The translations under genes and the position numbers were made by a program. DNA of 64,000 nt from the IMG/VR virus record IMGVR_UViG_3300005529_000005, positions 4,499 through 68,498 of that record, one strand, 5' to 3'. Positions 27,302 to 50,500 of this stretch are shown here, in pieces. The stretch comes from a virus. Under the pieces are notes generated by a model, which saw only the letters and a list, made by a program, of their open reading frames with translations, searched no databases and was not told where the DNA came from. Numbering within the stretch: the stretch's first letter is position 1; the number at the start of each line of letters is the position of its first letter.

Positions 27302-27508
27302 TCACCGCTGCTCTCCGACGCGCGGGCGGTCCCGAGCGCGGACGCAGTCGAGCGTGATGTCGTCGATTGAGTACCCGGCCCGATCCGCGAACATGGCGAA
27401 CTGAGCCCGGTCCTGGATCGCGTCGCGGCATACCTGCATGGTGTCGTAGCTCGGCCCGAGCACGTCGAAGACGCGCCCGAGGTAGAGGAGCGTGATCCAG
27501 GTCTTCAC
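27302..27508 (-). CDS. Hypothetical protein
   Basis: GTG coupled to the ERF stop. Confidence 0.45.
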   Translation of the reverse strand: MKTWITLLYLGRVFDVLGPSYDTMQVCRDAIQDRAQFAMFADRAGYSIDDITLDCVRARDRPRVGEQR

Positions 27509-37158: not shown

Positions 37159-39416
37159 TCGGCGCGGCGACGATCCAGACGGAGGTCCGCCACGCGCACC
37201 TCTTCTGCGGGATCGGCGGCGGCGCCGTCGGCTTCAACCGGGGGAGCGCGCGCGTCGGGAACACGGAGGCGCGCTTCGTGTGCGTCGGCGGGATCGACTC
37301 GGACCCGGCGGCGTGCCGGGACTTCGAGCGCAAGGCGCGCGCGCCGGCGACGTGCCGGGACCTCTTCTCGCTCGACCAGTACCGGGACTTCCACGGGCGC
37401 GACCCGGCGCCCGGGTGGGAGGAGGCGGGACCCGACGCGCTCCACCGCGCGTTCAGGCTGCGGCCGCACATCGTGTTCCTGAGCGCGCCGTGCAAGGGCT
37501 TCTCCGGCCTGCTGTCCGAGACCTCCTCCAAGACCGCGCGCTATCAGGCCTTGAACGGCCTGACGCTGCGCGGCGTGTGGCTCCTGCTGGAGGCCTACAA
37601 GGACGACCCGGTCGAGCTGCTCGTCTTCGAGAACGTCCCGAGGATCGCGACGCGCGGGCGCTGGCTGCTCGACCAGATCGTCGCGCTGCTGCGCGCCTAC
37701 GGCTACGCGGTCGCGGAGACGACGCACGACTGCGGGGAGCTGGGCGAGCTCGGCCAGAGCCGGAAGCGGTTCCTGCTCGTCGCGCGCCACCAGGAGAAGG
37801 TCCCGCCGTTCCTCTATGAGCCTCCGAAGCATCGGCTGCTCGGCGTGGGCGACGTGCTCGAGCGTCTCCCGATGCCGCTGACGGGTGAGGGCGGAGCGAT
37901 GCACCGGATGCCCGCGCTCCAGTGGAAGACGTGGGTCCGTCTGGCCTTCGTGCGCGCCGGCGCCGACTGGCGCTCGCTGAACGACCTCGCGGTCGAGGGC
38001 GGGTTCCTGAAGGACTTCGGGATCGTCCCGGCCGGCCCGTGGCGAAGTGACGTGCTCGGCGTCATGAACTGGACCGACACGGCGGGGACAGTCACGTCCC
38101 GCTCGGGCCCGACGAACGGCCGCTTCGCGGTCGCGGACCCGCGCGCGGGGGAGCTGGCTAGCAAGGACCGTCAGGCCTACGGCGTGGGCGCGTGGGAAGA
38201 CCCGGCCGCGACGGTGACCTCCGCGCGCTCGCCCGGTCAGGGGCGCTTCTCCGTGGCGGACCCGCGCTTCGCGCAGGAGCGGCGCAAGGCCGCCTTCGGC
38301 GTGAGGGGATGGGAGGAGCCCGCCGGCGTCGTCCAGGGCGAGAGCCTGCCGAGCAACGGCTCCTTCGCCGTCGCTGATCCCCGGCCGCCTGAGCCCATCC
38401 GTGGGGGAAAATATCGGGTGACCAGGATGGACGAGCCCGCCGGGACGGTGATCGCGTCCTCGACCACCGGGAACGGCGCCTTCGCGGTCTCCGACCCCCG
38501 GGTGGACGGCCACCCCCGGAGCGTCCAGCTCGGCGTGCGGGAGTGGAGCGAGCCGTCCGGGGTCGTCACGGGTCAGATGGCGGCCGGTCAGGGTCCGAAC
38601 TCCGTCGCGGACCCGCGACTCGGCGGGAAGCGGTTCAACACGACCTACAGGATCGTGCGATGGGACGAGACCGCGCCGGCGGTCGCCGGCCCGGGCGGAC
38701 CAGGCGGGGGGCTGGCGGTCGCCGACCCGCGCGCGACGCACGGTCCCAACGCTCACCACAACAAGATGCGGGTCGAGCCGTGGACGGACCCGTGTCACGC
38801 CGTCACCGGGACCGACCGCGTCGGGAGCGGCGCGCTGTGCGTCGCCGACCCGCGCTGGAGGGACGGCCGCGACGCCTACCTCTCCGCCGGGCACTACGGC
38901 GTGGTCCCCTGGACGCGGCCGTCGCGCGCCGTCTTCGGCCACGGTCAGCACGACAACGGCTTCAACTCCGTCGCTGACCCGCGACCGGATGGGAAAAACT
39001 CGTCCACCGACGAGTCGTGCGGGATCAACGGCTTGGGAGCCGAGTGGACGAGTCCGCGGGAAGAACCCGAGAAGTCGTCCATCCTCCTGCCCGCCCCCGA
39101 CGAGCGCCTCGTGTGCGTCATCTTCGCCCGCGACGGGACGTGGCACCGGCCCTTCACCACGCTGGAGCTGGCGGCTCTGCAGGGCCTCGTCGACCCGGAG
39201 GAGCAGTTCGAGCTCGACGGCCTCTCCGACGCGGCGTGGCGGGAGCGAATCGGCAACTGCGTCCCGCCGCCCTCGGCGACGGCGATCGCGAGCGTGATGG
39301 GAGAGACGCTCCTCCTCGCGTGGGCGGGGGAGACGTTCAAGCTGAGCGCCGCGCCGATCTGGGTCAGGGACGTCGCGGTCGGGCTCTCCGTGCGGCCGCA
39401 GGAGATCGACCAATGA
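37155..39416 (+). CDS. C5-cytosine DNA methyltransferase with eight internal ~29-aa repeats
   Basis: HLFCGIGGGAVG (I), SAPCKGFS (IV), FENVPRI (VI), QSRKRFLL (VIII), RIGNCVPP (X); VADPR repeats in the TRD. Confidence 0.9.
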   Translation: MIGAATIQTEVRHAHLFCGIGGGAVGFNRGSARVGNTEARFVCVGGIDSDPAACRDFERKARAPATCRDLFSLDQYRDFHGRDPAPGWEEAGPDALHRAFRLRPHIVFLSAPCKGFSGLLSETSSKTARYQALNGLTLRGVWLLLEAYKDDPVELLVFENVPRIATRGRWLLDQIVALLRAYGYAVAETTHDCGELGELGQSRKRFLLVARHQEKVPPFLYEPPKHRLLGVGDVLERLPMPLTGEGGAMHRMPALQWKTWVRLAFVRAGADWRSLNDLAVEGGFLKDFGIVPAGPWRSDVLGVMNWTDTAGTVTSRSGPTNGRFAVADPRAGELASKDRQAYGVGAWEDPAATVTSARSPGQGRFSVADPRFAQERRKAAFGVRGWEEPAGVVQGESLPSNGSFAVADPRPPEPIRGGKYRVTRMDEPAGTVIASSTTGNGAFAVSDPRVDGHPRSVQLGVREWSEPSGVVTGQMAAGQGPNSVADPRLGGKRFNTTYRIVRWDETAPAVAGPGGPGGGLAVADPRATHGPNAHHNKMRVEPWTDPCHAVTGTDRVGSGALCVADPRWRDGRDAYLSAGHYGVVPWTRPSRAVFGHGQHDNGFNSVADPRPDGKNSSTDESCGINGLGAEWTSPREEPEKSSILLPAPDERLVCVIFARDGTWHRPFTTLELAALQGLVDPEEQFELDGLSDAAWRERIGNCVPPPSATAIASVMGETLLLAWAGETFKLSAAPIWVRDVAVGLSVRPQEIDQ

Positions 39417-39619
39417 GCAGACGCTATGCCGTGGTTTTTCCCGACGGCTCGATGTCCGTGATGGCTGAGCCCAAGACCGGTCACGAAGCCGCCTCCTATC
39501 GCGGAATGGCGAAGGAGGAGCGTGACGGCTGGAATGAACGGGAGCGTAAATCGAAGTCGAAGAGCTTCGCCAAGCTGGCGACGGTTGAGGTCTCCGACGT
39601 GAAGGAGCTAAGACGATGA
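39413..39619 (+). CDS. Hypothetical protein
   Basis: Coupled small ORF. Confidence 0.5.
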   Translation: MSRRYAVVFPDGSMSVMAEPKTGHEAASYRGMAKEERDGWNERERKSKSKSFAKLATVEVSDVKELRR

Positions 39620-40431
39620 CTCGCGAGACCGCCCCGAGGTTCTCGGGGATCGGCGGCCACCACAGCCACAAGGCGGGGACCGTCGAGTGGATCACCCCGC
39701 CGGACGTCATAGCGGCGCTCGGGCCCTTCGACCTCGACCCGTGCTCCTCGCTAGCCCAGCCGTGGCCGACCGCGGCGCGCGCCTTCACCCGGACCGACAA
39801 CGGCCTGACGCGCGCGTGGGAGGGGCGGGTCTGGCTGAACCCTCCCTACGCGAACGGCGTGATCGAGAAGTGGCTCGCGCGCATGGCGGAGCACGACCGA
39901 GGGACGGCGCTGATCTTCGCGCGGACGGAGACCGACGCCTTCTTCAGGTTCGTGTGGGAGCGCGCGACGGCGCTCCTCTTCATGCGCGGCCGGATCAACT
40001 TCCACTTCGGGGAGCCGTGGCTCGACCAGAAAACCGGTGTCCACTATCAGGTCGGCGATCGCGCCCCCGGGAACGCCGGCGCGCCGACCGTGCTGTGCGC
40101 CTACGGGGTCGACGACGCGGACGTGCTGGCGGCCTGCCGGATCGACGGCCGCTTCGTCCCGCTCCGCCTCCCGCGCTCAGTGGTCGTGTCGATTTTCTCG
40201 ACCTCAAACGAGGAGGCAAAAAGTGTCGTCACCTGGCGGGAGGCCCTCGCCGGCTTCTTCGCCGAGCGCGAGGGGCCGGTCGTCCTCGAGGACCTCTACC
40301 GCGCCTTCGCGACGCACCCGAAGGCGGCGACGAACCGGAACGTCCAGGCGAAGCTGCGCCAGCAGCTCCAGGAGGGACCCTACCGCCGGGTCGGTCCTGG
40401 TCTTTGGGAGGCGGCTGAACAGGGAGCGTGA
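39616..40431 (+). CDS. Phage Dam-like N6-adenine methyltransferase
   Basis: EWITPP...FDLDPC...DNGLTRAWEGRVWLNPPY...ARTET. Confidence 0.9.
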   Translation: MTRETAPRFSGIGGHHSHKAGTVEWITPPDVIAALGPFDLDPCSSLAQPWPTAARAFTRTDNGLTRAWEGRVWLNPPYANGVIEKWLARMAEHDRGTALIFARTETDAFFRFVWERATALLFMRGRINFHFGEPWLDQKTGVHYQVGDRAPGNAGAPTVLCAYGVDDADVLAACRIDGRFVPLRLPRSVVVSIFSTSNEEAKSVVTWREALAGFFAEREGPVVLEDLYRAFATHPKAATNRNVQAKLRQQLQEGPYRRVGPGLWEAAEQGA

Positions 40432-40831
40432 CCATGGCATGCGACGCAGCGATCCGGCACGTCAGGCGGGTGCTGGACGAGAGGTTCCTGAGCATGAACG
40501 CCAGCGACGTCTACGCCGAGGTCAGGTGGTGGACCCCGGACACGATCGTCGAGGCGCTCGACTCGCTCGTCGCCGCGCGGGCCGCGATCAAGGTCGAGGA
40601 CCGCTACCACGTCCTGGGACCGCTCCGGTGAGCGCGGCGCGGGGCGACGAGGTCGTCTACCTCTCCCTGACGGGGGAGACGTGGGACGCCGTGGTCGCGG
40701 CGGTCGGTCCCGAGGACCGCGTCACCCTCCTCGTCGGGAGCTTCGAGCTCGAACTGAGCCGCGTTCCCCTTGACGACACCCGCACTCTTCCTGGATCGTG
40801 GTCCCCGCTCGGACAGGGAGAGGGCGATTGA
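40428..40831 (+). other. Two small hypothetical ORFs (40428..40631; 40628..40831)
   Basis: GTGA-type coupled overlaps. Confidence 0.45.
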
Positions 40832-41430
40832 CCAAGAGACCCAAGCCGGCCGCGGCCGTCGACTTCGACGGGAGGGACGTACCCGCGATGCGGCCCGTCA
40901 TGACGCCGCTGACGAAGATCGTCCCGTACCCGCTCAACCCGCGCACGCACCCGCCCGCTCAGGTCGCGCTCCTCGCCGGCATGATGACGAAGCACGGCGT
41001 CGACCAGCCGATCGTCATGCGCGAGGAGGACGGGTTCATCCTGAAGGGTCACGGGCGGCGCCTCGCGGCGATCGCGGCCGCGATGGACGCCTTCCCGGTG
41101 ATCTGGCGCGCCGGCCTCTCGGAGGAAGAGGCGCGCGCGATGCGCATCGAGGACAACCAGGTCGCGCTGCTCGCCGGTTGGGACCGAGAGTTGATCCACC
41201 AGGAGGTCGTCAGCCTGAAGACGGCGGGCTACGACGTGTCGACGCTCGGCTTCGGCGACGCGCAGCTGGTCCAGTTCACCACGACGCCGGGACCGCCCGC
41301 TCAGTTCCCCGCCTTCGGGGAGAACATCCCCACCGACTTCTGCTGCCCGAAGTGCGGCTACAAGTGGTCGGGGAAGCCGACGCCCGAGTCGGACGGCGAC
41401 CGCGCGGCTCCCAAGCGGAAGAAGGCGTGA
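40828..41430 (+). CDS. ParB/Srx N-terminal domain protein with C-terminal Zn ribbon
   Basis: PYPLNPRTH...VDQPIV...ILKGHGRRLAA...MRIEDNQ; CPKCGYKW. Confidence 0.85.
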   Translation: MTKRPKPAAAVDFDGRDVPAMRPVMTPLTKIVPYPLNPRTHPPAQVALLAGMMTKHGVDQPIVMREEDGFILKGHGRRLAAIAAAMDAFPVIWRAGLSEEEARAMRIEDNQVALLAGWDRELIHQEVVSLKTAGYDVSTLGFGDAQLVQFTTTPGPPAQFPAFGENIPTDFCCPKCGYKWSGKPTPESDGDRAAPKRKKA

Positions 41431-41431
41431 T

Positions 41432-43099
41432 GTGGCTCTCCTCCTGCGGATCAAGGATCCCCAGTTCTTCCGCAAGCGGAGCACCGGGCAACCGGTGCGC
41501 ACCATCGACCTCGACGCGGAGCCGTGTCCGACGATCATGGCGAACGGGATCAGGAGCGTCACCGTCGGGCGCTACGAGCTGGTCGACGACGGGAGGCCCC
41601 CGGTGATCGACGCGACGAAGCCTCCCTACCGCGTCCCGTCCATGGCGGAGATCGCGGCGGTCGAGCCGAACGGGCTGAAGGTGATCTCCACGTTCGCGGG
41701 ATGCGGCGGCTCCTCGCTCGGCTACCGGATGGCGGGCTTCAAGGTCCTATGGGCGTCGGAGTTCGTCGAGCGCGCGCGGCTCGACTACGAGGCGAACGCC
41801 GCTCAGGGGACGGTCGTCGACGGCCGCGACATCCGCCAGGTCGACCCCCTGGAGGTCCTGAGGACGGTCGGCCTTCAGCCGGGCGAGCTCGACGTGCTCG
41901 ATGGCTCCCCGCCGTGCGCGTCCTTCTCGACCTCCGGCAAGCGCGACAAGAAGTGGGGAACGGTCAGCAAGTACAGCGACCGGGAGCAGCGCACCGACGA
42001 CCTCTTCTTCGAGTTCGTTCGGTTCGCGAAGGCGATGCGGCCTCGCGTGTTCGTGGCGGAGAACGTCTCCGGGCTCGTGAAGGGCGTCGCGAAGGGCTAC
42101 TTCCTGGAGATCCTGGCCGCGATGAAGAAGGTCGGCTACCGCGTGGAGGCGCGCCTCCTCGACGCTCAGTGGCTCGGCGTCCCGCAGCAGCGGCAGCGGA
42201 TCATCTTCGTCGGCGTGCGCAGGGACCTCGGCCTCGAGCCCGCCTACCCGTCGCCGCTGCCCTACCGATATAGCGTACGCGACGCTCTGCCCTGGATCAG
42301 CCGCGCGATCCACGACACGTCGGGAGACCGAAGCGTCGGGGAAATCACGAACCGGCCGGCGCCGACGATCACGGTGGGCGGCCTGCAGCCCAACGCCTGC
42401 CACTTCAAGGTCGTCGAGGCGACGGTCTTCCAGAGCGACAAGTACACCCACCTGAAGGACGTGACCGACACGCCCGCGCTGACGATCCGGGCGACGCCCG
42501 GCGAGGGGAAGAAGAAGCCCTTCGTGGTCGAGCGCGTCGTCCAGGGTCCGGAGGTCGACCAGCGCAACGAGGGTCGCGACCTGAGCGACGGCCCCGCGCC
42601 GACGGTCGTCGCCGGCGACGCTGAGAAGCGCACGCCGCGCCAGTTCGTGGTCGAGCAGTTCGTCGTGGAGCCCGAGACCGACATCAGCGGCCAGGCGATC
42701 GGCAAGGAGTACGACCGCCTGAACCCGGGGCAGGAGTCGGACAAGTACTTCAACCTGAAGCGCGCGCCGATCAGCGAGCCGTGCCAGACGGTGACCGCCT
42801 CGGGCGGGATGAACTCCGGGATCGCGAGCGTGACGCACCCGACGGAGAAGCGGAAGTTCTCGATCGCCGAGCTGCGCCGCGTATGCGGCTTCCCGGACGA
42901 CTTCGCGCTCGGCGGGACCTACGCGCAGCAGTGGGAGCGGATGGGGCGCGCGGTCCCGCCGGTGATGATGGCCGCGATCGCGCGCAGCGTCGCCGGCGTG
43001 CTGAAGGAGGCGAAGAATGTGCGGCCTGCTCGGAGCGTTCGATCTCCCCCGGTTCGACGTCGCCGCGCGGCTCGACCTGATAGCGCATCGCGGGCCTGA
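41432..43099 (+). CDS. C5-cytosine DNA methyltransferase homolog with Arg in motif X; predicted carboxymethyltransferase
   Basis: STFAGCGGSSLG (I), DGSPPCASFS (IV), AENVSGL (VI), QQRQRIIFVG (VIII), ERMGRAVPP (X; GNAV replaced by GRAV). Confidence 0.88.
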   Translation: MALLLRIKDPQFFRKRSTGQPVRTIDLDAEPCPTIMANGIRSVTVGRYELVDDGRPPVIDATKPPYRVPSMAEIAAVEPNGLKVISTFAGCGGSSLGYRMAGFKVLWASEFVERARLDYEANAAQGTVVDGRDIRQVDPLEVLRTVGLQPGELDVLDGSPPCASFSTSGKRDKKWGTVSKYSDREQRTDDLFFEFVRFAKAMRPRVFVAENVSGLVKGVAKGYFLEILAAMKKVGYRVEARLLDAQWLGVPQQRQRIIFVGVRRDLGLEPAYPSPLPYRYSVRDALPWISRAIHDTSGDRSVGEITNRPAPTITVGGLQPNACHFKVVEATVFQSDKYTHLKDVTDTPALTIRATPGEGKKKPFVVERVVQGPEVDQRNEGRDLSDGPAPTVVAGDAEKRTPRQFVVEQFVVEPETDISGQAIGKEYDRLNPGQESDKYFNLKRAPISEPCQTVTASGGMNSGIASVTHPTEKRKFSIAELRRVCGFPDDFALGGTYAQQWERMGRAVPPVMMAAIARSVAGVLKEAKNVRPARSVRSPPVRRRRAARPDSASRA

Positions 43100-44390
43100 C
43101 GGCTCCGGGGTCGCGTCGTCCGGGCCTGCGGTCCACGGCCACGTCCGCCTCGCCCTCCTCGACCTGAGCGAGGCCGGCGCGCAGCCGTTCAGGCGAGGCG
43201 AGGGCCTCCTCTCCTTCAACGGTGAGATTTGGAACTGGCGCGCCGTCCGGGAGGAGCTGGAGCGCGCGGACGAGGTCTTCCGCACGTCGTGCGACACGGA
43301 GGTCCTCGCGGCCGCGCTCGACCGTTGGGGCGTCGGGGAGACGCTCCCGCGCCTCGAGGGCATGTTCGCCTTCGCGTGGTCGAAGGGGCGGACGCACGTC
43401 CTCGCGCGCGACCGCTTCGGGAAGATCCCGCTCCACGTCTCCCGCTTCGCGCGGTCCTTCGTCTGGTCGAGCGAGATGAAGGGGCTCGGGCCCGAGCACC
43501 CGTCGGCGCCGCTCCCGCCCGGGACGATCCTCGATCTGACCACCGGGGAACTGGAGACCTGGTACGCGCTCCCGCGGCGCCACGCGGTCGAGTCCCCCGC
43601 GGCGATCGCGGCTGACCTCCGCGCCGGCGTGGCGGCCCGGATCGTCTCCGACGCGCCGCTGTGCTGCCTGATCTCCGGCGGGCTCGACTCGTCGCTGATC
43701 CTGACGGAGGCGCGCCGGCTGAAGCCAGACGTCGTCGCCTTCACCGCCCGCCACGACGACCGCTCCGCCGACCTGAGGGCCGCGCGGCGCCTCTGCGCCG
43801 AGCTCGACGTGAGCCTGGTCGAGGTCCCCGTGGGCGCGCCGACGGCGGACACGCTCGCGGCGGCCGTCCGCGCGATCGAACTGCCGAGCAAGGCCCAGGT
43901 GGAGATCGCGGCGCTGTGCGTGCCGCTCGCTCGCGCGATCGCCGCGGAGGGCTTCAAGGCCTGCCTCTCCGGGGAGGCGGCGGACGAACTCTTCGGCGGC
44001 TACGGCTCGATGTGCATCAAGGGGGCGCGCGCGGACGACGAGGCGTGGCGCGCGATCCGCGTCGCTCAGATCGAGAAGATGGCGCGCGGAAACTTCGTGC
44101 GGTGCAACAAGGCGTTCATGGCGGCGGGCGTCGAGTGCCGCCTCCCGTTCATGGAGCGACGGCTCGTGGAGCGCGTGATCAACCTGAGGAAGGTCGACTG
44201 CCCGCCCGGGAAGAAGGCGCTGAAGGAGGCCGCGCGCGGTCTCGTCCCGCGGTGGGTGATCTCCCGCACCAAGCAGACGTTCCAGGGAGGCGCGGGGATG
44301 GACGAGGCGGCGGCGCGGGCGGTGGCGAACCCGAAGGTCTTCTACGGGGCAGAGTTCCGGTCAGCCTTCGGCGCGGCCGTCGCGGCGTAG
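43017..44390 (+). CDS. Asparagine synthetase B-like glutamine amidotransferase/amide ligase
   Basis: AGGAGG RBS; MCG Ntn nucleophile, HRGPDG, GHVRLALLD, NGEIWN, RDRFGKIPL, SGGLDSS PP-loop, SGEAADELFGGY, ECRLPF. Confidence 0.93.
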   Translation: MCGLLGAFDLPRFDVAARLDLIAHRGPDGSGVASSGPAVHGHVRLALLDLSEAGAQPFRRGEGLLSFNGEIWNWRAVREELERADEVFRTSCDTEVLAAALDRWGVGETLPRLEGMFAFAWSKGRTHVLARDRFGKIPLHVSRFARSFVWSSEMKGLGPEHPSAPLPPGTILDLTTGELETWYALPRRHAVESPAAIAADLRAGVAARIVSDAPLCCLISGGLDSSLILTEARRLKPDVVAFTARHDDRSADLRAARRLCAELDVSLVEVPVGAPTADTLAAAVRAIELPSKAQVEIAALCVPLARAIAAEGFKACLSGEAADELFGGYGSMCIKGARADDEAWRAIRVAQIEKMARGNFVRCNKAFMAAGVECRLPFMERRLVERVINLRKVDCPPGKKALKEAARGLVPRWVISRTKQTFQGGAGMDEAAARAVANPKVFYGAEFRSAFGAAVAA

Positions 44391-44815
44391 AACGCGGTCC
44401 AGAAGCGCCGCGCCTCGTCGACGTGGGGGACGTTCCACCAGCGGTTCAGGCCGGACGGGTGAGGCGCCACGGTGACCTCGCCGCAGTCCCGGGAGAGCCG
44501 GGTCCACTCGAAATAGCCGACGGGTGAGACGCGGAAGGCGCGCGCGACGTTCCAACCGAGCAGTACGACGTGGTCGCGCGCGGCGACGACCTCCGCCATC
44601 GCGTCGGCCCGCGCGCGGGCCTCCTCGACGGGGAAGGCGTCTCCGGCGCCCGCCTTCCCGGGGAACGTGGCGAAGACGTTCGCCCGGTCGAAGGCGGTCA
44701 GGAAGGCGCGGAGGTCGAGGCCGCAGAGGGCGGCGAGCCGCCCCCCGCAGCGTCCGGCCAGCGGCGTAGGGTTGCCGCTCGGGCCGGGCGCTTGACCTAT
44801 GATCAGCGGCTTCAC
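44342..44815 (-). CDS. Uracil-DNA glycosylase superfamily protein
   Basis: LIIGQAPG (motif A), VVLLG..VARAF, PHPSGLNRWWN (motif B). Confidence 0.8.
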   Translation of the reverse strand: MKPLIIGQAPGPSGNPTPLAGRCGGRLAALCGLDLRAFLTAFDRANVFATFPGKAGAGDAFPVEEARARADAMAEVVAARDHVVLLGWNVARAFRVSPVGYFEWTRLSRDCGEVTVAPHPSGLNRWWNVPHVDEARRFWTAFYAATAAPKADRNSAP

Positions 44816-45096
44816 GACTGAAGCCAGAAGGCGAGGGCGGGAGAAGGCAACTCCCCGACGAGGACGATCTCGTCCGAGGTCCACTCCTCGCCGTCGGCGT
44901 CGACGTAAAGCTCCTTCCCGGCGCGATCCTTGGTCCGCTGGCTATCCCAACAGACCTCCGTCTCCCCGACGAAGTCGCAGTCGAGCGACCCGTCGGGGAG
45001 CCGGGAGAAGGACTCCTCGCGCACGAGGGCGTTCGCCTCTACCACGTCGGCGGTCGCGACGATGATCACGCCTGTCGGGCTGAAGGCCTTTGCCAT
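44812..45096 (-). CDS. Acidic hypothetical protein
   Basis: Coupled ORF MAKAFSPTG... Confidence 0.55.
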   Translation of the reverse strand: MAKAFSPTGVIIVATADVVEANALVREESFSRLPDGSLDCDFVGETEVCWDSQRTKDRAGKELYVDADGEEWTSDEIVLVGELPSPALAFWLQS

Positions 45097-45101
45097 GGCG
45101 G

Positions 45102-46070
45102 TCAGCCCTTCGGGGCGGGGAGCGTGACGACGAACTTTCCGTCCTTCCGCTCGCACTTGGCGCCGACGCGCTCGCAGACGCGCCGAAGCGTGACGGCGCA
45201 GGCCTTCCAGCCGCCGATCTTCTTGCAGAGGTCCGCCTCGGTCATGCCCTCGGGTCCCGCCGCGACGGCGGTGTCGAGGAGCTTCGCCAGTTTCGACCCC
45301 TCCCGGAGGCCGTCCGGGCGGGCGGAGACGGGCGTCCGCGCGTTCGCCTTGGCGGCGGGCGCGGCGGCCTTCTTCGCGCGCGGCGTCGCCGGCGCCTTCC
45401 GGGCGGTCTTCGCGGGGGTCTTCGTCGAGGTCTTCTTGGTCGCGGTCTTAGCCATCTCAGTCTCCTCAGGTTGCGCCGCCGTGGCGGGCGCGGGTTTAGC
45501 CGGGGCGGACGCCGTCGGCGGGTCGTAGACGAACTTGCCCGGGCCGACCTGAGTGATCAGGGGGAGCCCGGACTTCTCCCAGGCGGCGTCGGCCGCCTGG
45601 CAACGATCGGCGTGGAGGTCGCCCGCCCGGTGACCGGACGGCCGCTTACACCACGCTCCCGCCCGTACGCCGCACGCGGGACACGCGACGGCGAGCACGG
45701 GATGCTTGTGGGCGGTGAAGTCGGGGACTTCTCCGCCGCTCGCCGGCGCGGGCGCCGACGGTGACTCGGTGATCGGCGGGAGGTCGGGCCCGAGGAGGGC
45801 CGCGTCCACCGCCCGGCCTTGCGCGGCCGCGAGGATTTGGTCGAGCCGCGCGCGCGGGACGCGCGGCGGGAGGGTCTTCGGCTCAGGCTTCACGTGCTCC
45901 TTCTCCTTCCACTTCGTCGGCTCCTGGAAGCGGCCGCGGCGGAGCCGCTCCAGGTTCGCCTCGATCTCCTCCAGCCGTTCGGGCGTCATCCCGATCCAGC
46001 GGTTCAGGACGTCGGGGACGCCGCCGTCCCGCACCTGCTGAGCCCGCGCGGTGATCTCCTCCGGGGTCAT
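45102..46070 (-). CDS. Multidomain protein: Zn finger plus Lys/Ala-rich histone-H1-like wHTH (possible internal start at 45455)
   Basis: CPACGVRAGAWC...H Zn finger; MAKTATKKTSTKTPAK... preceded by an in-frame GAGGAG RBS. Confidence 0.6.
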   Translation of the reverse strand: MTPEEITARAQQVRDGGVPDVLNRWIGMTPERLEEIEANLERLRRGRFQEPTKWKEKEHVKPEPKTLPPRVPRARLDQILAAAQGRAVDAALLGPDLPPITESPSAPAPASGGEVPDFTAHKHPVLAVACPACGVRAGAWCKRPSGHRAGDLHADRCQAADAAWEKSGLPLITQVGPGKFVYDPPTASAPAKPAPATAAQPEETEMAKTATKKTSTKTPAKTARKAPATPRAKKAAAPAAKANARTPVSARPDGLREGSKLAKLLDTAVAAGPEGMTEADLCKKIGGWKACAVTLRRVCERVGAKCERKDGKFVVTLPAPKG

Positions 46071-46357
46071 TTGGGCAGGTCCTTCAGGCGGGTCCGCGCG
46101 CCCGCGTGGGAGACCCACCGGGCCTCGCCGTCGTCGAGGTCCACGTCGTAGCCGCGCTCCGTGGTGGTCTCGTAGGACCTCACGATAGTGCCGGGCTTCC
46201 CGTCGAGGAGAACGCGCGCGCCAGCGGCGGGGTCAGCATCAACTCGTTGGATCGGCGGCTCCCAAAGCCCGCATTTACAAGCGTTCCCGTTCCAAGAATC
46301 GATACCGCCCTTCCGCCAACCGCATCTTTGGCAATGGGGATGAACCGGCTCGGTCAT
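46067..46357 (-). CDS. Small Cys-rich/SH3-like protein
   Basis: CQRCGW...CKC. Confidence 0.5.
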   Translation of the reverse strand: MTEPVHPHCQRCGWRKGGIDSWNGNACKCGLWEPPIQRVDADPAAGARVLLDGKPGTIVRSYETTTERGYDVDLDDGEARWVSHAGARTRLKDLPK

Positions 46358-46362
46358 CGCGG

Positions 46363-46848
46363 TCACCCGACGCGCCGCCGGCCGGCCATATCGACGTCCT
46401 GGAGAACCTCGTCGATCGGCGTGACCTTGTCGCCGATGGCGGCCTGAAGGATCATGCACGCCTGATCGATGATGTCGGCGCCGCCGTGAGGAGGCTTCGC
46501 CGCCATGATCAGCGGGTGAAGGAGCGCGTGCTGAGCCGCGTCCGCCTCCAGCTTGCCGTAGCGGTTGCGCGGAGCCTGAAGCGCCTTCACGACGCGGCGC
46601 ACGACGCCCGCGATCACGCCGAGCGCCTCCGCGCTCTGGCCGAGCGCGCGCTCGACGCCGCGCACGTAGCCGATGGCGCGGTCGAGTCCCTCCTGCTGTA
46701 TCTCCGGCTCGGGGACCTGCCAGTCGAAGCCCGGCGAGCTCGGGAACGTGATCAGCCAGATTCCGCGCCCGTAGGTCAGCCGCGCGCGGACCTCCTTCCC
46801 GTTCATGGCGACCCAGTGGGCGCCGTCTACCTTCTCGATCTTCCACAT
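46363..46848 (-). CDS. Hypothetical protein
   Basis: GGGGAG RBS; MWKIEKVDG... Confidence 0.6.
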   Translation of the reverse strand: MWKIEKVDGAHWVAMNGKEVRARLTYGRGIWLITFPSSPGFDWQVPEPEIQQEGLDRAIGYVRGVERALGQSAEALGVIAGVVRRVVKALQAPRNRYGKLEADAAQHALLHPLIMAAKPPHGGADIIDQACMILQAAIGDKVTPIDEVLQDVDMAGRRRVG

Positions 46849-46886
46849 CTTCGGTTCTCCCTTTGGCGCTCGAAGCGGCACCCCGT

Positions 46887-46912
46887 GGGGCCGGGCGGTG
46901 AGGCCCGGCCCC
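46887..46912. promoter_or_regulatory. Perfect 10-bp hairpin after the DUF932 gene
   Basis: GGGGCCGGGC-GGTGAG-GCCCGGCCCC; no U-tract. Confidence 0.4.
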
Positions 46913-46930
46913 CTAGGCCGCCGCCCGGAA

Positions 46931-48157
46931 TCAGGCGACCTTGTCGAGGATGTGCTTCGCCTCAAGCTCCTGCTGGAGGCGGTCGTCCGTGTTCAGGACG
47001 CCGCGCGCGTGCGCGGTGATGGCCTGAGCCATGTCCCACGCGGAGCGCGGCGGACGGCCCTCCTCCTTCTCACCCTGCTCGAGGATGGCCTTCGCCTTCG
47101 TCAGCGAGAAGTTGCGGGCCTTCAGGAAGGCGATCGCGCCCTCCTCGTCGTCCGCGACCTTCGCCGCCTTGGCGAGCTTCACGCCGGCGACGAGCTTGTC
47201 GGTCGCGCCGTTCGCGTAGGCGGTCAGCGCGGGGACCGCCTGACGGAGCCAGCGGTCGGGCGCCGCCCGGTTGTGGATGATGCGGACCTCCTCGAAGTTC
47301 TCCACGCCCCAGAGGTTCCGGTTCATGCAGACGCCGCGGAGGAAGAACGCCGCGATCTTCGCGCTGCGCGTCCCGACCTCGCTGTTCTGGCAGAAGAAGC
47401 CCCTGAACATGAGGTCCGGATTCCCGTTCGCCAGCTTGCCGACCTCGATCGGGTTGCGGTCGTCGACCAGGAACATGAACACGTCCCGGTCGGAGGCGTA
47501 GAGCGTGGTGGAGTCGGAGGTCACCGGAGCCTCCGGGTCGTAGAGGCGCGTCGACCAGTCGAGCACGCCCGGGATCTTCCAGCGCATCTCGCCGCGCCCG
47601 GTCCCGGCGACGGCCTGAACCGCCTTCACGATCTCGTAGTCCGGGATGCGGCCGTAGTCGGGGCCGGTCGCCGCGTACAGCTGGTCGGCGCCGCCGTAGA
47701 GCTTGATCTCCTCGACCTCGCGGGCGAAGCGGAGCCGGTAGGCGAGGGCGTCCGAGACGATCTGACTCGGAAGCTCCCGGTAGTGAGCGGCGGGCGCCTT
47801 CGCGAGCGCGCACATCTGACCGAACGCCCAGTGGGTCGGGGCGATCTCGCGCGCCTCGACGCGGTCGCCGTGGTCGATCTTCACGCCGACGGTGAGGCGG
47901 TGAAGGTCGGCCGCCGTCTTCGGCTCCGGAGAGATCAGGTCGAAGGCGTCCGTCTTCGTTCGGGTCTGGAAGCTCCCGTCCCAGAACTTCTTCTTGAAGT
48001 CGTGCAAGTCGGTCAGCGACGTGAACCGCTGGTCCGCCGGGCGCGCCATCCACTGCATCGAGACCTCGCCGTTGTGACCGCCGGTGAACGGGTTCACCTC
48101 GTAAGGTGCCCGGGCCGTGGTCGCGCTGGTCTCGTTCTGCTTCGTGATGTCCAACAT
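46931..48157 (-). CDS. DUF932-family protein
   Basis: WMARPADQRFTSL, PTHWAFGQMC, GPDYGRIPD, LYASDRDVFMFL, NSEVG...FFLRGVCMNRNLWG. Confidence 0.85.
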   Translation of the reverse strand: MLDITKQNETSATTARAPYEVNPFTGGHNGEVSMQWMARPADQRFTSLTDLHDFKKKFWDGSFQTRTKTDAFDLISPEPKTAADLHRLTVGVKIDHGDRVEAREIAPTHWAFGQMCALAKAPAAHYRELPSQIVSDALAYRLRFAREVEEIKLYGGADQLYAATGPDYGRIPDYEIVKAVQAVAGTGRGEMRWKIPGVLDWSTRLYDPEAPVTSDSTTLYASDRDVFMFLVDDRNPIEVGKLANGNPDLMFRGFFCQNSEVGTRSAKIAAFFLRGVCMNRNLWGVENFEEVRIIHNRAAPDRWLRQAVPALTAYANGATDKLVAGVKLAKAAKVADDEEGAIAFLKARNFSLTKAKAILEQGEKEEGRPPRSAWDMAQAITAHARGVLNTDDRLQQELEAKHILDKVA

Positions 48158-48248
48158 GGTAGTCCCTTGTTTGAGGGCTCACTGGCCTCGTCAGCACCGG
48201 AGGAAACCGGCGGACCGTCGGGGCGCCGGAGCGCCCCTAGGTTTCGGC

Positions 48249-48766
48249 CTAGTCGCGGATCATCGTGAGGAGGCGGGACGGCGTCATCTTCTCGTCCCGC
48301 GCCTGAGCGTCGGCGGCGAACCAGCCATCGGCGCGGAGGCGCCGGTAGATCGCGCGCGCTTCCTCCGCGCTGATCCCGCGCTCGATGATCGATCGGGTGG
48401 CGCCGATCAGGGCGAGAACGGTCGCGGTCTCACCGTGGCACTCGAACGACGCCCAGCAGACGCAGGGCGCGGGAGCCATCCTGAGCCAGTGGGTAATCAT
48501 GACGCGCTCCTATTGTCGTAGAGCGGGACGCGCGTCGCGTCGTAGGGGTCCGAGGGTGAGCCCGGCCACACGCGGCCGTTGTAGGAGACGTAGCCGAAGG
48601 TCGACCCGCTCGCGCGAACGAGTAGCGCGGGAGGGACCTCGGAGGCCCCGAGGCCCGAGGCGTCGCGCGCCTTGACGAACATCTCGGAGGCCTGCCTCAG
48701 CGAGGTAACCTCATATCGGCGTCGCGCGATCTGGATGAAGAGGGACTCGGTCAGCGTAGTTTGCAT
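48249..48766 (-). other. Two small hypothetical ORFs (48249..48500; 48497..48766)
   Basis: CAGGAG RBS before 48766; coupled. Confidence 0.55.
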
Positions 48767-48820
48767 CTTCAGGTTCTCCTGTCGGCGGCGGGGAGGAATT
48801 TCCCGTCCGGCGCACCGCTA

Positions 48821-48850
48821 TTGAAGGGTGCGGGGAGCCAGATGTACAGT
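48821..48850 (+). promoter_or_regulatory. Putative sigma70 promoter for the CmoA-like gene
   Basis: TTGAAG-N18-TACAGT in the divergent intergenic region, upstream of AGGAGG/GTG at 48876. Confidence 0.4.
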
Positions 48851-48875
48851 GCGGTTTGACCCCCAGGAGGATCAG

Positions 48876-49541
48876 GTGGCTAGGAAGAAGCTCGACGTAC
48901 CCCGTGAGTGGAGCTGGTCGGCGGCGGTCGCCAAGCACTTCGATTCGCACGTTCGGGAGAGCCTCCCGTGGTACGACCTCGCCACCGGCGCCGTCGCCCA
49001 CATCGCGCGCGCCTACGTCCCCCGGGAGGGCGTAGTGATCGACGTCGGCGCCTCCACGGGCAACGTCGGGCGCGCGCTCGCGCCGGTCCTGAAGGCGAGG
49101 TCAGCGACGCTCCGCGCGATCGACTCGTCGGTGGAGATGCGCGACGTCTATCGCGGTCCGGGCGTGCTCGAGGTCGTGGACGCGGAGGAGTTCGACTTCG
49201 CCGGCGCCGCTCCCGACCTGATCGTGTGCTTCCTCGCGCTGATGTTCGTCCCGGTCTCGACGCGGAGGCTCCTGGTCGAGCGCATGAAGGAGGCGCTGCG
49301 CCCGGGCGGCGCGATCATCGTCTTCGACAAGATGGTGCCGAGGCCGGGCTACGTCGGGACCGTCGCCTACCGGCTGACGCTCGCCGCGAAGATGGACGCC
49401 GGCGCCTCCCCCGCCGAGGTCGTGGCGAAGGAGTTGTCGATCGCCGGCGTCCAGCGTCCCATGTCAGAGGGCGAGCTCGGCGGCTTCGTCGAGGTCTTCC
49501 GCTTCGGGGACTTCGCGGGGTTCGTGCACGAGCGCGACTGA
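48876..49541 (+). CDS. CmoA-like SAM-dependent enzyme (carboxy-SAM synthase homolog)
   Basis: WSWSAAVAKHFDSHVRESLPWY, VIDVGASTG, AIDSSVEM, FLALMFV, LRPGGAIIVFDK follow the CmoA pattern ([22 protein letters not shown]...LNPGGALVLSEK, recalled from memory). Confidence 0.8.
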   Translation: MARKKLDVPREWSWSAAVAKHFDSHVRESLPWYDLATGAVAHIARAYVPREGVVIDVGASTGNVGRALAPVLKARSATLRAIDSSVEMRDVYRGPGVLEVVDAEEFDFAGAAPDLIVCFLALMFVPVSTRRLLVERMKEALRPGGAIIVFDKMVPRPGYVGTVAYRLTLAAKMDAGASPAEVVAKELSIAGVQRPMSEGELGGFVEVFRFGDFAGFVHERD

Positions 49542-49759
49542 GCTGGTCAGCCAGGTCTCGCGCGGCGCGGCGGGGGCGATCTCGGCGCGGCCGGCCGGCG
49601 TGATGACCGTCCGCCGCGGCCGAGGCCCGGGCTTGTCGCCACGGATCATCCCGGCCTTGATCAGCGACTCTACCGCCCGCGCGCGTGGGCCCGCGACGGA
49701 GAGTGGGACGCCCTCCGGGCGCCCCACGTGCTCGAGCAGAACGGCCCTCTGCCTCGGCG

Positions 49760-50047
49760 TCACGCGGCCCGCCGCTTGGCCTGACGCTTCCCCTCGGTCC
49801 TCCCGACGACGGTCCCGGTCGGGGCGCCGTCGAAGAAGAACGAGACGGGGACCTGGAGCACGCCCGCGATCTGCTGAAGGCGGCTCGCCCCGACGCGGTT
49901 CGCGCCCTTCTCGTACTTCTGGACCTGTTGGAAGGTCAGCCCGAGACGCTCGCCGAGCGTCGTCTGGCTCATGCTGAGCATCATCCTCTTCATGCGGATG
50001 CGTTTGCCGACCCACGTGTCGACCGGCTGCGGTGACCGCTTCGCCAT
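49760..50047 (-). CDS. XRE-family HTH regulator (alphaproteobacterial chromosomal type)
   Basis: PVDTWVGKRIRMKR...SQTTLGERLGLTFQQVQKYEKGANRVGASRL. Confidence 0.9.
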   Translation of the reverse strand: MAKRSPQPVDTWVGKRIRMKRMMLSMSQTTLGERLGLTFQQVQKYEKGANRVGASRLQQIAGVLQVPVSFFFDGAPTGTVVGRTEGKRQAKRRAA

Positions 50048-50500
50048 CGTTCTCTCCTACGTTGTTCGGGGAGTATTCCCCGAGTGAAACCTATTTCCGG
50101 TAGAAGACGGGTGTCCACTGGCCGTGCGGTATTTTTTTCTCTATCCTCCGAGTCGTCTGGTTCGCCCGGCAGCGGTCTCGACATCAACATCATCGCAGCG
50201 CCTCGGCGCATTGCACTCAGGAGCACCATCGCCGGGCCTTCTGGGCCGCAGGGAGCGGCGCATCGCTCCGACCCTCTTCCGGGTCGTCGCGGCAAACCGA
50301 GGATGGAGACCTGTAGTCCTCGGGGACCTGAGGTCGGGACGCTCGTGCGCGCGAGCGGAGCGCGGCGACCCGGAAGGGGATCACGAACACCACGCCCGCG
50401 ACAAAGGGCAAGGTCGGCGGCGAGGCGCGCGCTGGAAGAACCGGGCGCGCCTCGCCGGCCAAAATGTTCCACGTGAAACATTCCTACCGGAACACCGTAG

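What the first reader, a model, noticed from the sequence alone, without database searches (positions are those of the whole stretch)
40828..49541. Predicted cytosine hypermodification pathway: carboxymethylation then amidation
Seen: an operon of ParB/Zn-ribbon (40828), C5-MTase homolog (41432) and asparagine-synthetase-like enzyme (43017, overlapping the MTase by 83 nt with its own AGGAGG), a convergent UDG-fold gene, and 4.5 kb downstream a CmoA-like gene. Established: CmoA makes carboxy-SAM from SAM and prephenate; C5-MTases with a basic residue at the motif X Asn can transfer carboxymethyl; AsnB enzymes activate a carboxylate with ATP and form an amide. From memory, not checked here, a CmoA/MTase/amide-ligase triad producing 5-carboxymethylcytosine has been reported in a cyanophage. 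Inference: this phage makes 5-carboxymethyl-dC and converts it to 5-carbamoylmethyl-dC or another amide, as anti-restriction armour, in a host lineage where I know of no description.
Basis: partly seen in the sequence, partly recalled or inferred. Interest (0 to 1): 0.93.

Follow-up and report, generated by a model that had tools for sequence, protein, structure and literature searches.

The report
Phage cytosine carboxymethylation-amidation gene cassette
This soil phage carries the gene set, first described in 2025, that puts a carboxymethyl group on DNA cytosines, here with a glutamine-using enzyme predicted (not yet measured) to cap it as a simple amide; it is a new member of a known kind.

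Summary
They lie in a 74-kb uncultivated soil phage with about 70% GC.

- **Methyltransferase:** it is a CmoX-type enzyme. Its best solved relative is SpCmoX (8YF3, E 2e-65). It has the SPPC motif and ERMGRAVPP, with Arg where ordinary cytosine methylases have Asn.
- **AsnB homolog:** it keeps every glutaminase residue and the PP-loop. It has lost residues tied to aspartate activation. It is 41% identical to A0A7T0Q3R0, which I identified as Streptomyces phage TurkishDelight gp124.
- **Distal gene:** it belongs to the CmoA family. Glu sits at the Arg199 position, as in the validated SpCmoA, and an Arg sits eight residues later.

Yang et al. (Nat Commun 2025, PMC12783734) already described CmoA/CmoX/CmoY, the ParB association and this glutamine-amidase ligase cluster. 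They predicted ammonia as its substrate but could not test it. The pathway reading is therefore supported but not new. This scan has also met the cassette on other DNA.

New here:
- In about 110 related loci, Arg-type enzymes have CmoA nearby (93/96) and Asn-type enzymes never do (0/17).
- A roughly 150-aa UDG-fold gene recurs beside or inside these ParB-methyltransferase modules.

No chemistry is shown. The host is unknown, probably Pseudomonadota.

The parts
40798..41430 (+). ParB/Srx-like N-terminal domain protein ending in a conserved CPxCGYxWSG cysteine knuckle. It is the first gene of the operon.
   Evidence: PHROG 620 E 3e-35. Pfam ParB_N scores 19.5 bits, below the cutoff. A ParB homolog sits directly upstream of the MTase in 89 of 96 Arg-type and 14 of 17 Asn-type clusters. 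The C-terminal knuckle is conserved.
41432..43099 (+). CmoX-type DNA cytosine-C5 carboxymethyltransferase homolog, 555 aa, with a long target-recognition region.
   Evidence: Best PDB hit is 8YF3 SpCmoX at E 1.9e-65; the next hit is 3e-22. Motif IV reads GSPPCASFS and motif X reads ERMGRAVPP. It is 50% identical to TurkishDelight gp123. Nearest relatives are L071 (75%) and L058.
42947..42949 (+). Codon of the motif-X Arg, equivalent to SpCmoX R350 and M.HhaI N304.
   Evidence: The alignment to 8YF3 and M.HaeIII places GR opposite GN. Among 90%-dereplicated clusters, 96 are Arg-type and 17 are Asn-type.
43017..44390 (+). AsnB-family glutamine-dependent amide ligase, 457 aa, belonging to the A0A7T0Q3R0 cluster.
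   Evidence: Pfam GATase_6/7 plus Asn_synthase. Below both NCBIfam AsnB cutoffs. PHROG 16728 E 3e-133. 41% identical to TurkishDelight gp124 over its full length. Active-site comparison with E. coli AsnB.
44342..44815 (-). Mini UDG-fold protein, 157 aa as called (the ORF extends to 44884), convergent with the ligase gene and overlapping its 3' end.
   Evidence: Pfam UDG scores 24.3 bits, exactly at the cutoff. PHROG 12275 E 7e-28. 243 homologs found. AF2 model pLDDT 92.7. Foldseek matches UdgX, family-4 UDG, MUG and TDG at TM 0.56-0.67. It lies within 850 bp of a CmoX-clade MTase in 20 of 47 UDG-seeded loci.
48828..49541 (+). CmoA-family carboxy-SAM synthase homolog. The true start may be internal, at about 48876.
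   Evidence: The top NCBIfam hits are the two CmoA models, but far below cutoff (46 vs 193 bits). PHROG 4752 E 5e-49. The family profile hits E. coli CmoA 4GEK at 2.7e-44 and H. influenzae YecO at 1e-42, against 7e-19 for the next class. 47-71% identical homologs sit inside the cassette in related loci.

Best explanation
This is a post-replicative DNA cytosine hypermodification system of the CmoA/CmoX/ligase kind.

**Proposed steps**
1. The CmoA homolog converts SAM and host prephenate into carboxy-SAM.
2. The CmoX homolog flips out target cytosines. It attacks C6 with the SPPC cysteine and transfers the carboxymethyl group to C5. Its motif-X arginine holds the cofactor's carboxylate. The product is 5-carboxymethylcytosine.
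3. The AsnB-family enzyme adenylates that DNA-borne carboxylate at its PP-loop site. It amidates it with ammonia released from glutamine by its intact N-terminal Cys-nucleophile domain. The product is 5-carbamoylmethylcytosine.

The likely purpose is protection of phage DNA from restriction and other DNA-targeting defences.

**Accessory proteins**
- The ParB-like protein is a conserved DNA-binding accessory of the methyltransferase. Its role is unknown.
- The small UDG-fold protein is probably a uracil-type glycosylase. It would remove deamination products that C5-transferase chemistry generates, as Vsr does for Dcm.

**What is shown and what is inferred**
- Shown here: homology, motifs and gene linkage.
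- Inferred by analogy with phage S-B43: carboxy-SAM synthesis, carboxymethyl transfer and action on DNA.
- Inferred from domain content only: ammonia as the amine.
- Inferred from context only: the ParB and UDG roles.
For: **CmoX**
- Best solved relative is SpCmoX 8YF3 at E 1.9e-65, against 3e-22 for ordinary C5-MTases. SPPC is present and GR replaces GN in motif X.
- In S-B43 this Arg contacts the Cx-SAM carboxylate, and the wild-type enzyme accepts only Cx-SAM (PMC12783734).
- Among 90%-dereplicated relatives, 93 of 96 Arg-type clusters have CmoA in the locus and 0 of 17 Asn-type clusters do. The residue after the catalytic Cys is A or S in all Arg-type enzymes, against Q, V or T in Asn-type enzymes.

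**CmoA**
- The family profile hits E. coli and H. influenzae CmoA at about 1e-43, well ahead of other methyltransferases.
- The gene lies inside the cassette in most relatives.
- Glu at the Arg199 column is shared with the biochemically validated SpCmoA. It co-varies with Arg at column 207.

**Ligase**
- C1, R30, R49, N74, E76, D98, the SGGLDS loop, E348, K429 and K449 are conserved in 42 of 42 family members. The TTIR segment is AQVE in all of them.
- Scores fall below both AsnB equivalog cutoffs.
- The enzyme is always next to an Arg-type CmoX.
- It is 41% identical to A0A7T0Q3R0 (TurkishDelight gp124), the cluster for which Yang et al. predicted glutamine-derived ammonia.

**Same cassette elsewhere**
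- TurkishDelight gp122-125 has the same four-gene order.

**UDG**
- A confident UDG-fold model with motif A (GQAPG), a conserved Asn and Phe, and motif B (HPSG).
- It is embedded between CmoX and the ligase or CmoA in several loci.
Against: - No chemistry is available for this phage or for any member of the glutamine-amidase ligase cluster. Yang et al. could not obtain soluble enzyme.
- The single-sequence CmoA score is far below the NCBIfam cutoff, 46 vs 193 bits.
- The only residue known to contact the carboxylate in E. coli CmoA, Arg199 (PMC4482062), is Glu here.
- CmoA lies 4.4 kb from its partners, across a block of opposite-strand genes.
- The Arg/CmoA association rests on few independent evolutionary switches: 4 on the best tree, and only 1 forced by well-supported branches.
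- The nearest CmoX relatives (L071, L058) have no ligase in the stretches held, so the ligase is a movable add-on.
- The target sequence is unknown.
- The UDG role is inferred from neighbourhood alone. More than half of its homologs sit in other contexts (27 of 47 UDG-seeded viral loci).
Confidence: 0.62

Rival explanations
1. The first two steps are as in the best explanation, giving 5-carboxymethylcytosine. The AsnB-family ligase then attaches an amine other than ammonia, such as an amino acid, a polyamine or hydroxylamine. In this reading the glutaminase domain is vestigial or supplies a different nitrogen donor.
For: SpCmoY, the only characterised ligase of these systems, attaches glycine. 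AsnB-family enzymes are chemically versatile: the second-best PDB hit is a hydroxyamidotransferase, 7YLZ. Yang et al. note several ligase clusters with unidentified amine substrates.
Against: All glutamine-binding and catalytic residues of the Ntn domain are conserved in 42 of 42 family members (40 of 42 for N74), which argues for a working glutaminase. SpCmoY lacks this domain altogether. No gene for making an alternative donor was found in the cassette.
Confidence: 0.15
2. The AsnB-family enzyme acts on the cofactor and not on DNA. It amidates carboxy-SAM to carbamoylmethyl-SAM, and the methyltransferase homolog then transfers that group.
For: The final base would be the same. Nothing in the sequence data identifies DNA as the ligase substrate. 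The ligase is shorter than AsnB and has altered acyl-substrate residues.
Against: The CmoX motif-X Arg is conserved in every ligase-associated enzyme, and in SpCmoX it binds the carboxylate of Cx-SAM. An amide cofactor would not need it. SpCmoY works on 5cxmC already in DNA. Many Arg-type cassettes have no ligase, so 5cxmC is a viable end product.
Confidence: 0.05
3. The genes are unrelated auxiliary genes. In this reading the methyltransferase is an ordinary 5-methylcytosine enzyme, the asparagine synthetase boosts host asparagine supply, and the CmoA-like enzyme acts on host tRNA or on a small molecule.
For: The AsnB homolog scores close to the TIGR01536 cutoff, 253 vs 267 bits. The phage carries at least three other ordinary DNA methyltransferases nearby. 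CmoA is 4.4 kb away.
Against: The ParB, CmoX, AsnB and CmoA genes are tightly linked in dozens of distinct viral contigs and in several gene orders. No CmoB homolog came up among the window ORFs I scanned against NCBIfam and Pfam (no dedicated search was run). SpCmoX cannot use SAM. Asn-type relatives never carry CmoA or the ligase.
Confidence: 0.04

Closest known systems
CmoA-CmoX-CmoY system of Synechococcus phage S-B43 (Yang et al., Nat Commun 2025, PMC12783734; SpCmoX structure 8YF3)
   Same: It also pairs a Cx-SAM synthase homolog, a C5-MTase homolog with SPPC and the motif-X Arg, and an adenylating amide ligase of the asparagine-synthetase family. The window's CmoX is 46-47% identical to SpCmoX across the conserved blocks.
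   Different: SpCmoY is a 271-aa PP-loop domain without a glutaminase domain, and it attaches glycine. The window's ligase is 457 aa with a complete glutaminase domain. The window's CmoX has about 180 extra residues, mostly in the target-recognition region, so the GC specificity of SpCmoX cannot be assumed. A ParB gene and a UDG-fold gene are present here. CmoA lies 4.4 kb away and is not adjacent.
Glutamine-amidase ligase cluster of Yang et al., represented by A0A7T0Q3R0 = Streptomyces phage TurkishDelight gp124, within the gp122-125 cassette
   Same: The gene set and order are the same: ParB, CmoX, GATase-AsnB ligase, CmoA. Identities are 50% for CmoX, 41% for the ligase and 27% for CmoA. 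The predicted substrate, glutamine-derived ammonia, is the same.
   Different: That phage is a cultured actinophage. The window's genome is an uncultivated soil phage that encodes an outer-membrane beta-barrel, so its host is probably Gram-negative. TurkishDelight has no UDG-fold gene in the stretch examined. Its CmoA uses A199/R200 where the window has E199/R207. Neither product has been measured.
Escherichia coli asparagine synthetase B (1CT9)
   Same: The two-domain architecture, the Cys1 Ntn glutaminase residues, the SGGLDS PP-loop, E348, K429 and K449 are all shared.
   Different: The window's enzyme is 97 residues shorter and scores below both NCBIfam AsnB cutoffs. The TTIR segment is AQVE and D384 is Asn in all 42 family members. 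From memory, that segment holds Thr322 and Arg325, which are needed for beta-aspartyl-AMP formation. The genomic context is DNA modification, not amino-acid metabolism.
Escherichia coli CmoA / H. influenzae YecO (4GEK, 1IM8) with CmoB
   Same: The family profile matches at about 1e-43 over nearly the full length. Many SAM-site and other invariant residues are shared.
   Different: Arg199, the sole carboxylate contact in E. coli CmoA (PMC4482062), is Glu. An Arg appears at column 207 instead. No CmoB partner is present; the carboxymethyl acceptor is DNA, via CmoX.
Engineered M.MpeI N374K carboxymethyltransferase
   Same: A basic residue replaces the motif-X Asn and enables use of Cx-SAM (as summarised in PMC12783734).
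   Different: That enzyme is a laboratory mutant (Lys) of a CpG methylase that still uses SAM. The natural Arg-type enzymes also change the residue after the catalytic Cys from Gln to Ala or Ser.
Dcm-Vsr pairing in E. coli (established knowledge), as an analogy for the UDG-fold gene
   Same: A repair enzyme for deamination products is genetically coupled to a cytosine-C5 transferase.
   Different: Vsr is a PD-(D/E)XK-type endonuclease. The protein here has a UDG fold, so it is presumably a glycosylase. The coupling here is inferred from gene neighbourhood only.

Membership tests
CmoX (DNA cytosine C5-carboxymethyltransferase, Yang et al. 2025) | Homology to SpCmoX and the C5-MTase fold | tested here: met
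   8YF3 is the best PDB hit at E 1.9e-65, 43 orders of magnitude ahead of M.HaeIII. Pfam DNA_methylase E 1e-51.
CmoX (DNA cytosine C5-carboxymethyltransferase, Yang et al. 2025) | SPPC motif containing the catalytic Cys | tested here: met
   GSPPCASFS at residues 158-166.
CmoX (DNA cytosine C5-carboxymethyltransferase, Yang et al. 2025) | Arg at the position of SpCmoX R350 / M.HhaI N304 | tested here: met
   ERMGRAVPP aligns with SpCmoX ERVGRMVPP and with M.HaeIII MIGNAVPV.
CmoX (DNA cytosine C5-carboxymethyltransferase, Yang et al. 2025) | A phage-encoded CmoA in the same genome | tested here: met
   A CmoA-family gene lies at 48828-49541.
CmoX (DNA cytosine C5-carboxymethyltransferase, Yang et al. 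2025) | Cx-SAM-dependent formation of 5-carboxymethylcytosine in DNA | not testable with these tools
   This needs LC-MS of DNA nucleosides.
CmoA (carboxy-SAM synthase; TIGR00740 / NF011995) | Score above the curated equivalog cutoff | tested here: not met
   46.1 bits against a cutoff of 193.3, and 45.4 against 285. These are still the two best NCBIfam hits.
CmoA (carboxy-SAM synthase; TIGR00740 / NF011995) | Family-level similarity to solved CmoA proteins that exceeds similarity to other class I methyltransferases | tested here: met
   Profile A1 scores 2.7e-44 against 4GEK and 9.6e-43 against 1IM8. The next class scores 6.6e-19.
CmoA (carboxy-SAM synthase; TIGR00740 / NF011995) | Arg199, the residue contacting the Cx-SAM carboxylate in E. 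coli CmoA (PMC4482062) | tested here: not met
   The window has Glu at this column, and so does the validated SpCmoA. A basic residue sits at column 207 (Arg in the window, Lys in SpCmoA). The E199/R207 and R199/V207 states co-vary across 104 sequences.
CmoA (carboxy-SAM synthase; TIGR00740 / NF011995) | Conversion of SAM and prephenate to carboxy-SAM | not testable with these tools
   This needs an enzyme assay.
SpCmoY-type glycine ligase cluster | PP-loop synthetase domain only, with no glutaminase domain | tested here: not met
   The window protein has GATase_6/7 at residues 27-157 and begins with Cys2. There is no BLAST match to SpCmoY.
Glutamine-amidase ligase cluster (A0A7T0Q3R0) of Yang et al. 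| A glutamine-hydrolysing domain fused to the AMP-forming synthetase domain, with similarity to the cluster representative at or above the network threshold (about 30% identity) | tested here: met
   41% identity over 1-452, E 2e-95, to TurkishDelight gp124. That protein is UniRef100_A0A7T0Q3R0.
Glutamine-amidase ligase cluster (A0A7T0Q3R0) of Yang et al. | Genomic association with CmoX and CmoA | tested here: met
   The gene is adjacent to and overlaps CmoX in the window. 44 of 45 homolog loci carry an Arg-type CmoX, and the exception is cut at the contig end.
Asparagine synthetase B (TIGR01536 / NF006949) | Score above the curated equivalog cutoff | tested here: not met
   253.2 bits against a cutoff of 267.1, and 222.5 against 499.
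Asparagine synthetase B (TIGR01536 / NF006949) | Conservation of acyl-substrate (aspartate) site residues | tested here: inconclusive
   E348, R387, K429 and K449 are kept. TTIR is replaced by AQVE, D384 by N and K376 by Q. The functional roles of these residues are recalled from the literature and were not checked here.
UDG superfamily (PF03167) | UDG fold with motif A (GxxPG) and motif B (HPS) | tested here: met
   Pfam scores 24.3 bits, exactly at the cutoff. GQAPG and PHPSG are conserved in 39 homologs. The model has pLDDT 92.7 and TM 0.56-0.67 to UdgX, family-4 UDG and MUG.
UDG superfamily (PF03167) | Glycosylase activity and substrate | not testable with these tools
   This needs oligonucleotide assays.

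The most novel reading that the evidence does not exclude
The virion DNA of this phage carries 5-carbamoylmethylcytosine, a base I found no report of in DNA. In addition, the roughly 150-aa UDG-fold protein is a dedicated partner of ParB-linked cytosine-C5 transferases, of both methyl and carboxymethyl type. It would excise the uracil-type deamination products these enzymes create, making it a glycosylase counterpart of Vsr carried by phages.
Probability: 0.25. Interest if true: 0.6.

Novelty: new member of a known kind. Interest (0 to 1): 0.4.

Why it matters
The carboxymethylcytosine pathway was shown experimentally in one cyanophage in late 2025. The branch that uses a glutamine-dependent ligase is large but chemically untested, because the one enzyme tried was insoluble.

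This phage and the 40-odd relatives collected here supply alternative orthologs for that experiment. A positive result would add a new natural DNA base, the cytosine analogue of the tRNA base ncm5U.

The side observations give testable rules for annotating and engineering these enzymes:
- Arg-type enzymes go with CmoA and Asn-type enzymes do not.
- The Gln after the catalytic Cys is lost in Arg-type enzymes.
- The carboxylate-binding Arg appears to have moved within phage CmoA.
- A UDG-fold gene recurs in these modules.

The cassette itself is an expected member of a published family.

Tried and rejected
- **Nucleotide search:** a megablast of the 8.8-kb region against phage records found nothing. 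The genome's own record is probably withheld, and no close cultured relative exists.
- **Bacterial genome scan with the ligase:** it found only two short MAG contigs (Methylobacteriaceae 64%, a gammaproteobacterium 54%) and distant cellular AsnB paralogs. The cassette is essentially viral, and this gave no firm host.
- **Sequencing-run search:** it showed only the source soil metagenome, so there is no expression or modification data.
- **Promoter and terminator scan, 39000-50500:** it found nothing. The separate promoter suggested for CmoA in another first-stage note is unsupported by this crude scan.
- **Original CmoA structure paper:** it is not held. The Arg199 role was taken from PMC4482062 instead.
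- **Phylogenetically independent test of Arg against CmoA:** it was underpowered, with 4 contrasts of which only 1 is robust. The Fisher p-value of 1.8e-17 should not be read as that many independent events.
- **Arg207 in the CmoA active site:** I did not model whether it reaches the carboxylate, because model coordinates are not exposed.
- **Protein complexes:** none was predicted, because no binding claim is made.
- **Target motif of CmoX:** it could not be inferred.

Full report
**Observation**

The window is 64 kb of a single 74,093-bp contig. GC is about 70% throughout. The contig encodes a terminase, portal, major head protein and baseplate, so it is a tailed-phage genome. The only sequencing run that holds it fully is a soil metagenome.

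- A ParB-like gene lies at 40798-41430.
- A C5-methyltransferase homolog at 41432-43099 starts one base after the ParB stop.
- An AsnB-like gene lies at 43017-44390. It overlaps the methyltransferase frame by 83 nt and has AGGAGG 7 nt before its ATG.
- A convergent UDG-fold gene has an ORF at 44342-44884 and a called product of 157 aa.
- A CmoA-like gene lies at 48828-49541, 4.4 kb further on, beyond a block of minus-strand genes.

The 'Zn-ribbon' of ParB is a single C-terminal CPxC knuckle. It is conserved as CPxCGYxWSG in about 40 homologs.

**The methyltransferase is a CmoX**

Its best solved relative is SpCmoX of Synechococcus phage S-B43 (8YF3, E 1.9e-65). Ordinary C5-methylases score 3e-22 or worse. 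It has GSPPCASFS and ERMGRAVPP. The Arg stands where M.HaeIII and M.HhaI have Asn and where SpCmoX has R350.

Yang et al. (PMC12783734) showed three things about SpCmoX:
- R350 contacts the carboxylate of carboxy-SAM.
- SpCmoX accepts only carboxy-SAM.
- The R350N mutant is dead.

They used SPPC plus this Arg to define 5,615 candidate CmoX proteins. The window's enzyme meets both criteria. The second C5-methylase in the window (36534-39416) keeps the canonical RIGNCVPP.

**The distal gene is a CmoA-family enzyme with a shifted arginine**

As a single sequence it is far below the NCBIfam CmoA cutoffs (46 vs 193 bits), although these are its best hits. A profile of 25 cassette-linked homologs hits E. 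coli CmoA (4GEK) at 2.7e-44 and H. influenzae YecO at 1e-42. The next methyltransferase class scores 7e-19.

In E. coli CmoA, Arg199 is the only residue that contacts the cofactor carboxylate (PMC4482062). In the window that column is Glu. The same is true of SpCmoA, which is biochemically validated and ten times faster than the E. coli enzyme.

Across 104 sequences the states co-vary:
- E199 with R207: 64 sequences, including the window.
- R199 with V207: 21 sequences.
- A199 with R or K at 200: about 8 sequences.

I read this as relocation of the basic residue. It is an inference that I could not check in three dimensions.

**The ligase is a glutamine-dependent AsnB-family enzyme but probably not an asparagine synthetase**

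I aligned it with E. coli AsnB and 41 family members. The glutaminase residues C1, R30, R49, N74, E76 and D98 are conserved throughout, as are the SGGLDS loop, E348, K429 and K449. The TTIR segment is AQVE and D384 is Asn in all 42 members. From memory, TTIR holds Thr322 and Arg325, which are needed for beta-aspartyl-AMP formation.

The protein is below both AsnB equivalog cutoffs. It is 41% identical over its full length to Streptomyces phage TurkishDelight gp124. An exact look-up shows that gp124 is UniRef100_A0A7T0Q3R0. That is the representative of the second-largest ligase cluster in Yang et al. They predicted glutamine-derived ammonia as its substrate but could not obtain soluble enzyme. 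TurkishDelight gp122-125 has the same ParB, CmoX, ligase, CmoA order.

**Linkage**

A scan of IMG/VR with the ligase returned 45 loci.
- 44 carry an adjacent CmoX with SPPC and GR. The exception is cut at the contig end.
- 44 carry CmoA.
- 41 carry ParB.

I then collected loci seeded by the UDG protein and by the methyltransferase and dereplicated at 90%. Of 96 Arg-type clusters, 93 have CmoA in the locus. Of 17 Asn-type clusters of the same clade, none does, and none has a ligase. In the methyltransferase-seeded set alone the counts are 58/60 against 0/13.

The residue after the catalytic Cys is Ala or Ser in every Arg-type enzyme. It is Gln, Val or Thr in the Asn-type enzymes.

There is a caveat. 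On a tree of 114 representatives the Asn/Arg state changes only about four times, and only one change is forced by well-supported branches. CmoA follows each change, but a sign test cannot be significant with so few contrasts.

The nearest relatives of the window's CmoX (L071 at 75%, and L058) have no ligase. About half of the Arg-type loci show none. The ligase is therefore an optional module.

**The UDG-fold gene and ParB**

The 157-aa protein belongs to a family of about 150-aa proteins with conserved G[QE]AP[GS], an Asn, GDAF and PHPSGxxxWWN. Its model is confident (pLDDT 92.7). It matches UdgX, family-4 UDGs, MUG and TDG at TM 0.56-0.67.

In 20 of 47 UDG-seeded viral loci, a CmoX-clade methyltransferase lies within 850 bp. 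The gene is either convergent, as in the window, or sits inside the operon. Examples are CmoX-UDG-ligase-CmoA in L077 and L101, and CmoX-UDG-CmoA in L085 and L091.

The UDG gene accompanies Asn-type as well as Arg-type enzymes. Its role is therefore tied to C5-transferase chemistry in general and not to the carboxymethyl group. My best guess is removal of uracil-type deamination products, as Vsr does for Dcm. More than half of its homologs sit elsewhere (27 of 47 viral loci). One of them lies next to TAGT and RGP-family genes. Yang et al. do not mention a glycosylase. ParB association was reported by them, with its function unknown.

**Mechanism, status and novelty**

The most likely mechanism has three steps:
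1. CmoA makes carboxy-SAM.
2. CmoX makes 5-carboxymethylcytosine.
3. The ligase adenylates the carboxylate and amidates it with glutamine-derived ammonia, giving 5-carbamoylmethylcytosine.

I found no report of this base in DNA in the held literature.

None of the chemistry is shown here. The target motif and the host are unknown. The phage encodes an outer-membrane beta-barrel of Pseudomonadota type, and the closest bacterial-bin hit is a Methylobacteriaceae contig.

The family, its ParB link and the predicted ammonia-using ligase cluster are already in print. This scan has met the cassette on other genomes: PaBG, a cyanophage with the glutamine version, and others. This is therefore a new member of a known kind. 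Its added value is modest: fresh orthologs for the untested branch and a few new comparative observations.

Noticed in passing
window 48828-49541; loci L003-L188: In phage CmoA homologs the carboxylate-binding Arg199 of E. coli CmoA co-varies with column 207. The states are E199+R207 (64 sequences, including the window), R199+V207 (21) and A199+R/K200 (about 8). The validated, fast SpCmoA has E199/K200/K207. This may reflect relocation of the basic residue and weaker product retention.
   Followed up: partly
window 41900-41930 (GSPPCASFS); loci L003-L188: The canonical Gln after the catalytic Cys (PCQ) is Ala or Ser in all 96 Arg-type clusters. It is Gln, Val or Thr in the 17 Asn-type clusters of the same clade. 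This is a second sequence signature of carboxymethyltransferases, one I did not see mentioned in the sections of the 2025 paper that I read.
   Followed up: partly
window 44342-44815 (-); L058, L061-L071, L077, L081-L085, L091, L092, L096, L097, L101: A roughly 150-aa UDG-fold gene recurs within 850 bp of ParB-linked C5-transferases, of both methyl (Asn) and carboxymethyl (Arg) type. It is sometimes inside the operon. Another first-stage note (e1-4175848) saw the same ParB, C5-MTase and convergent UDG arrangement in a different genome.
   Followed up: partly
L060:6209-8441: A homolog of the mini-UDG sits directly after genes with Pfam TAGT (PF20691) and RGP (PF03214) hits and before a DnaB helicase. 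No C5-methyltransferase is nearby. The family may therefore also accompany other base-modification systems.
   Followed up: no
window 40798-41430: The ParB-like protein ends in a conserved H/C-x-CPxCGYxWSG knuckle found in about 40 cassette-linked homologs. It has only one CxxC pair, so a metal site, if any, would need a partner or dimerisation.
   Followed up: partly
window 33861-34511, 36534-39416, 39616-40431: Three further DNA methyltransferase genes lie just upstream of the cassette: an N6_N4 type, a 960-aa C5 enzyme with canonical motif X (RIGNCVPP), and a Dam-like enzyme. Together with the cassette they form a 10-kb DNA-modification island.
   Followed up: partly
window 41432-43099: The CmoX homolog has a roughly 60-aa N-terminal extension shared with some relatives (L062, L013). 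Its long variable region holds four P-x-x-T-[IV] segments, which might mean more than one target-recognition unit. The target sequence is unknown.
   Followed up: no
L058, L071 versus window 43017-44390: The closest CmoX relatives have ParB-CmoX converging directly on the UDG gene, with no ligase between them. In the window's lineage the ligase gene therefore looks like an insertion between CmoX and the UDG gene, or a loss in the relatives.
   Followed up: partly
window 16416-17180: A phage-encoded outer-membrane beta-barrel protein (OMP_b-brl) has its nearest clusters in Pseudomonadota. This suggests a Gram-negative host despite the 70% GC.
   Followed up: partly
window 20286-21188, 26427-27101, 27505-28764: DUF5131, a YqaJ-like exonuclease and an ERF-family annealing protein lie on the minus strand. 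This is an ordinary recombination module.
   Followed up: no
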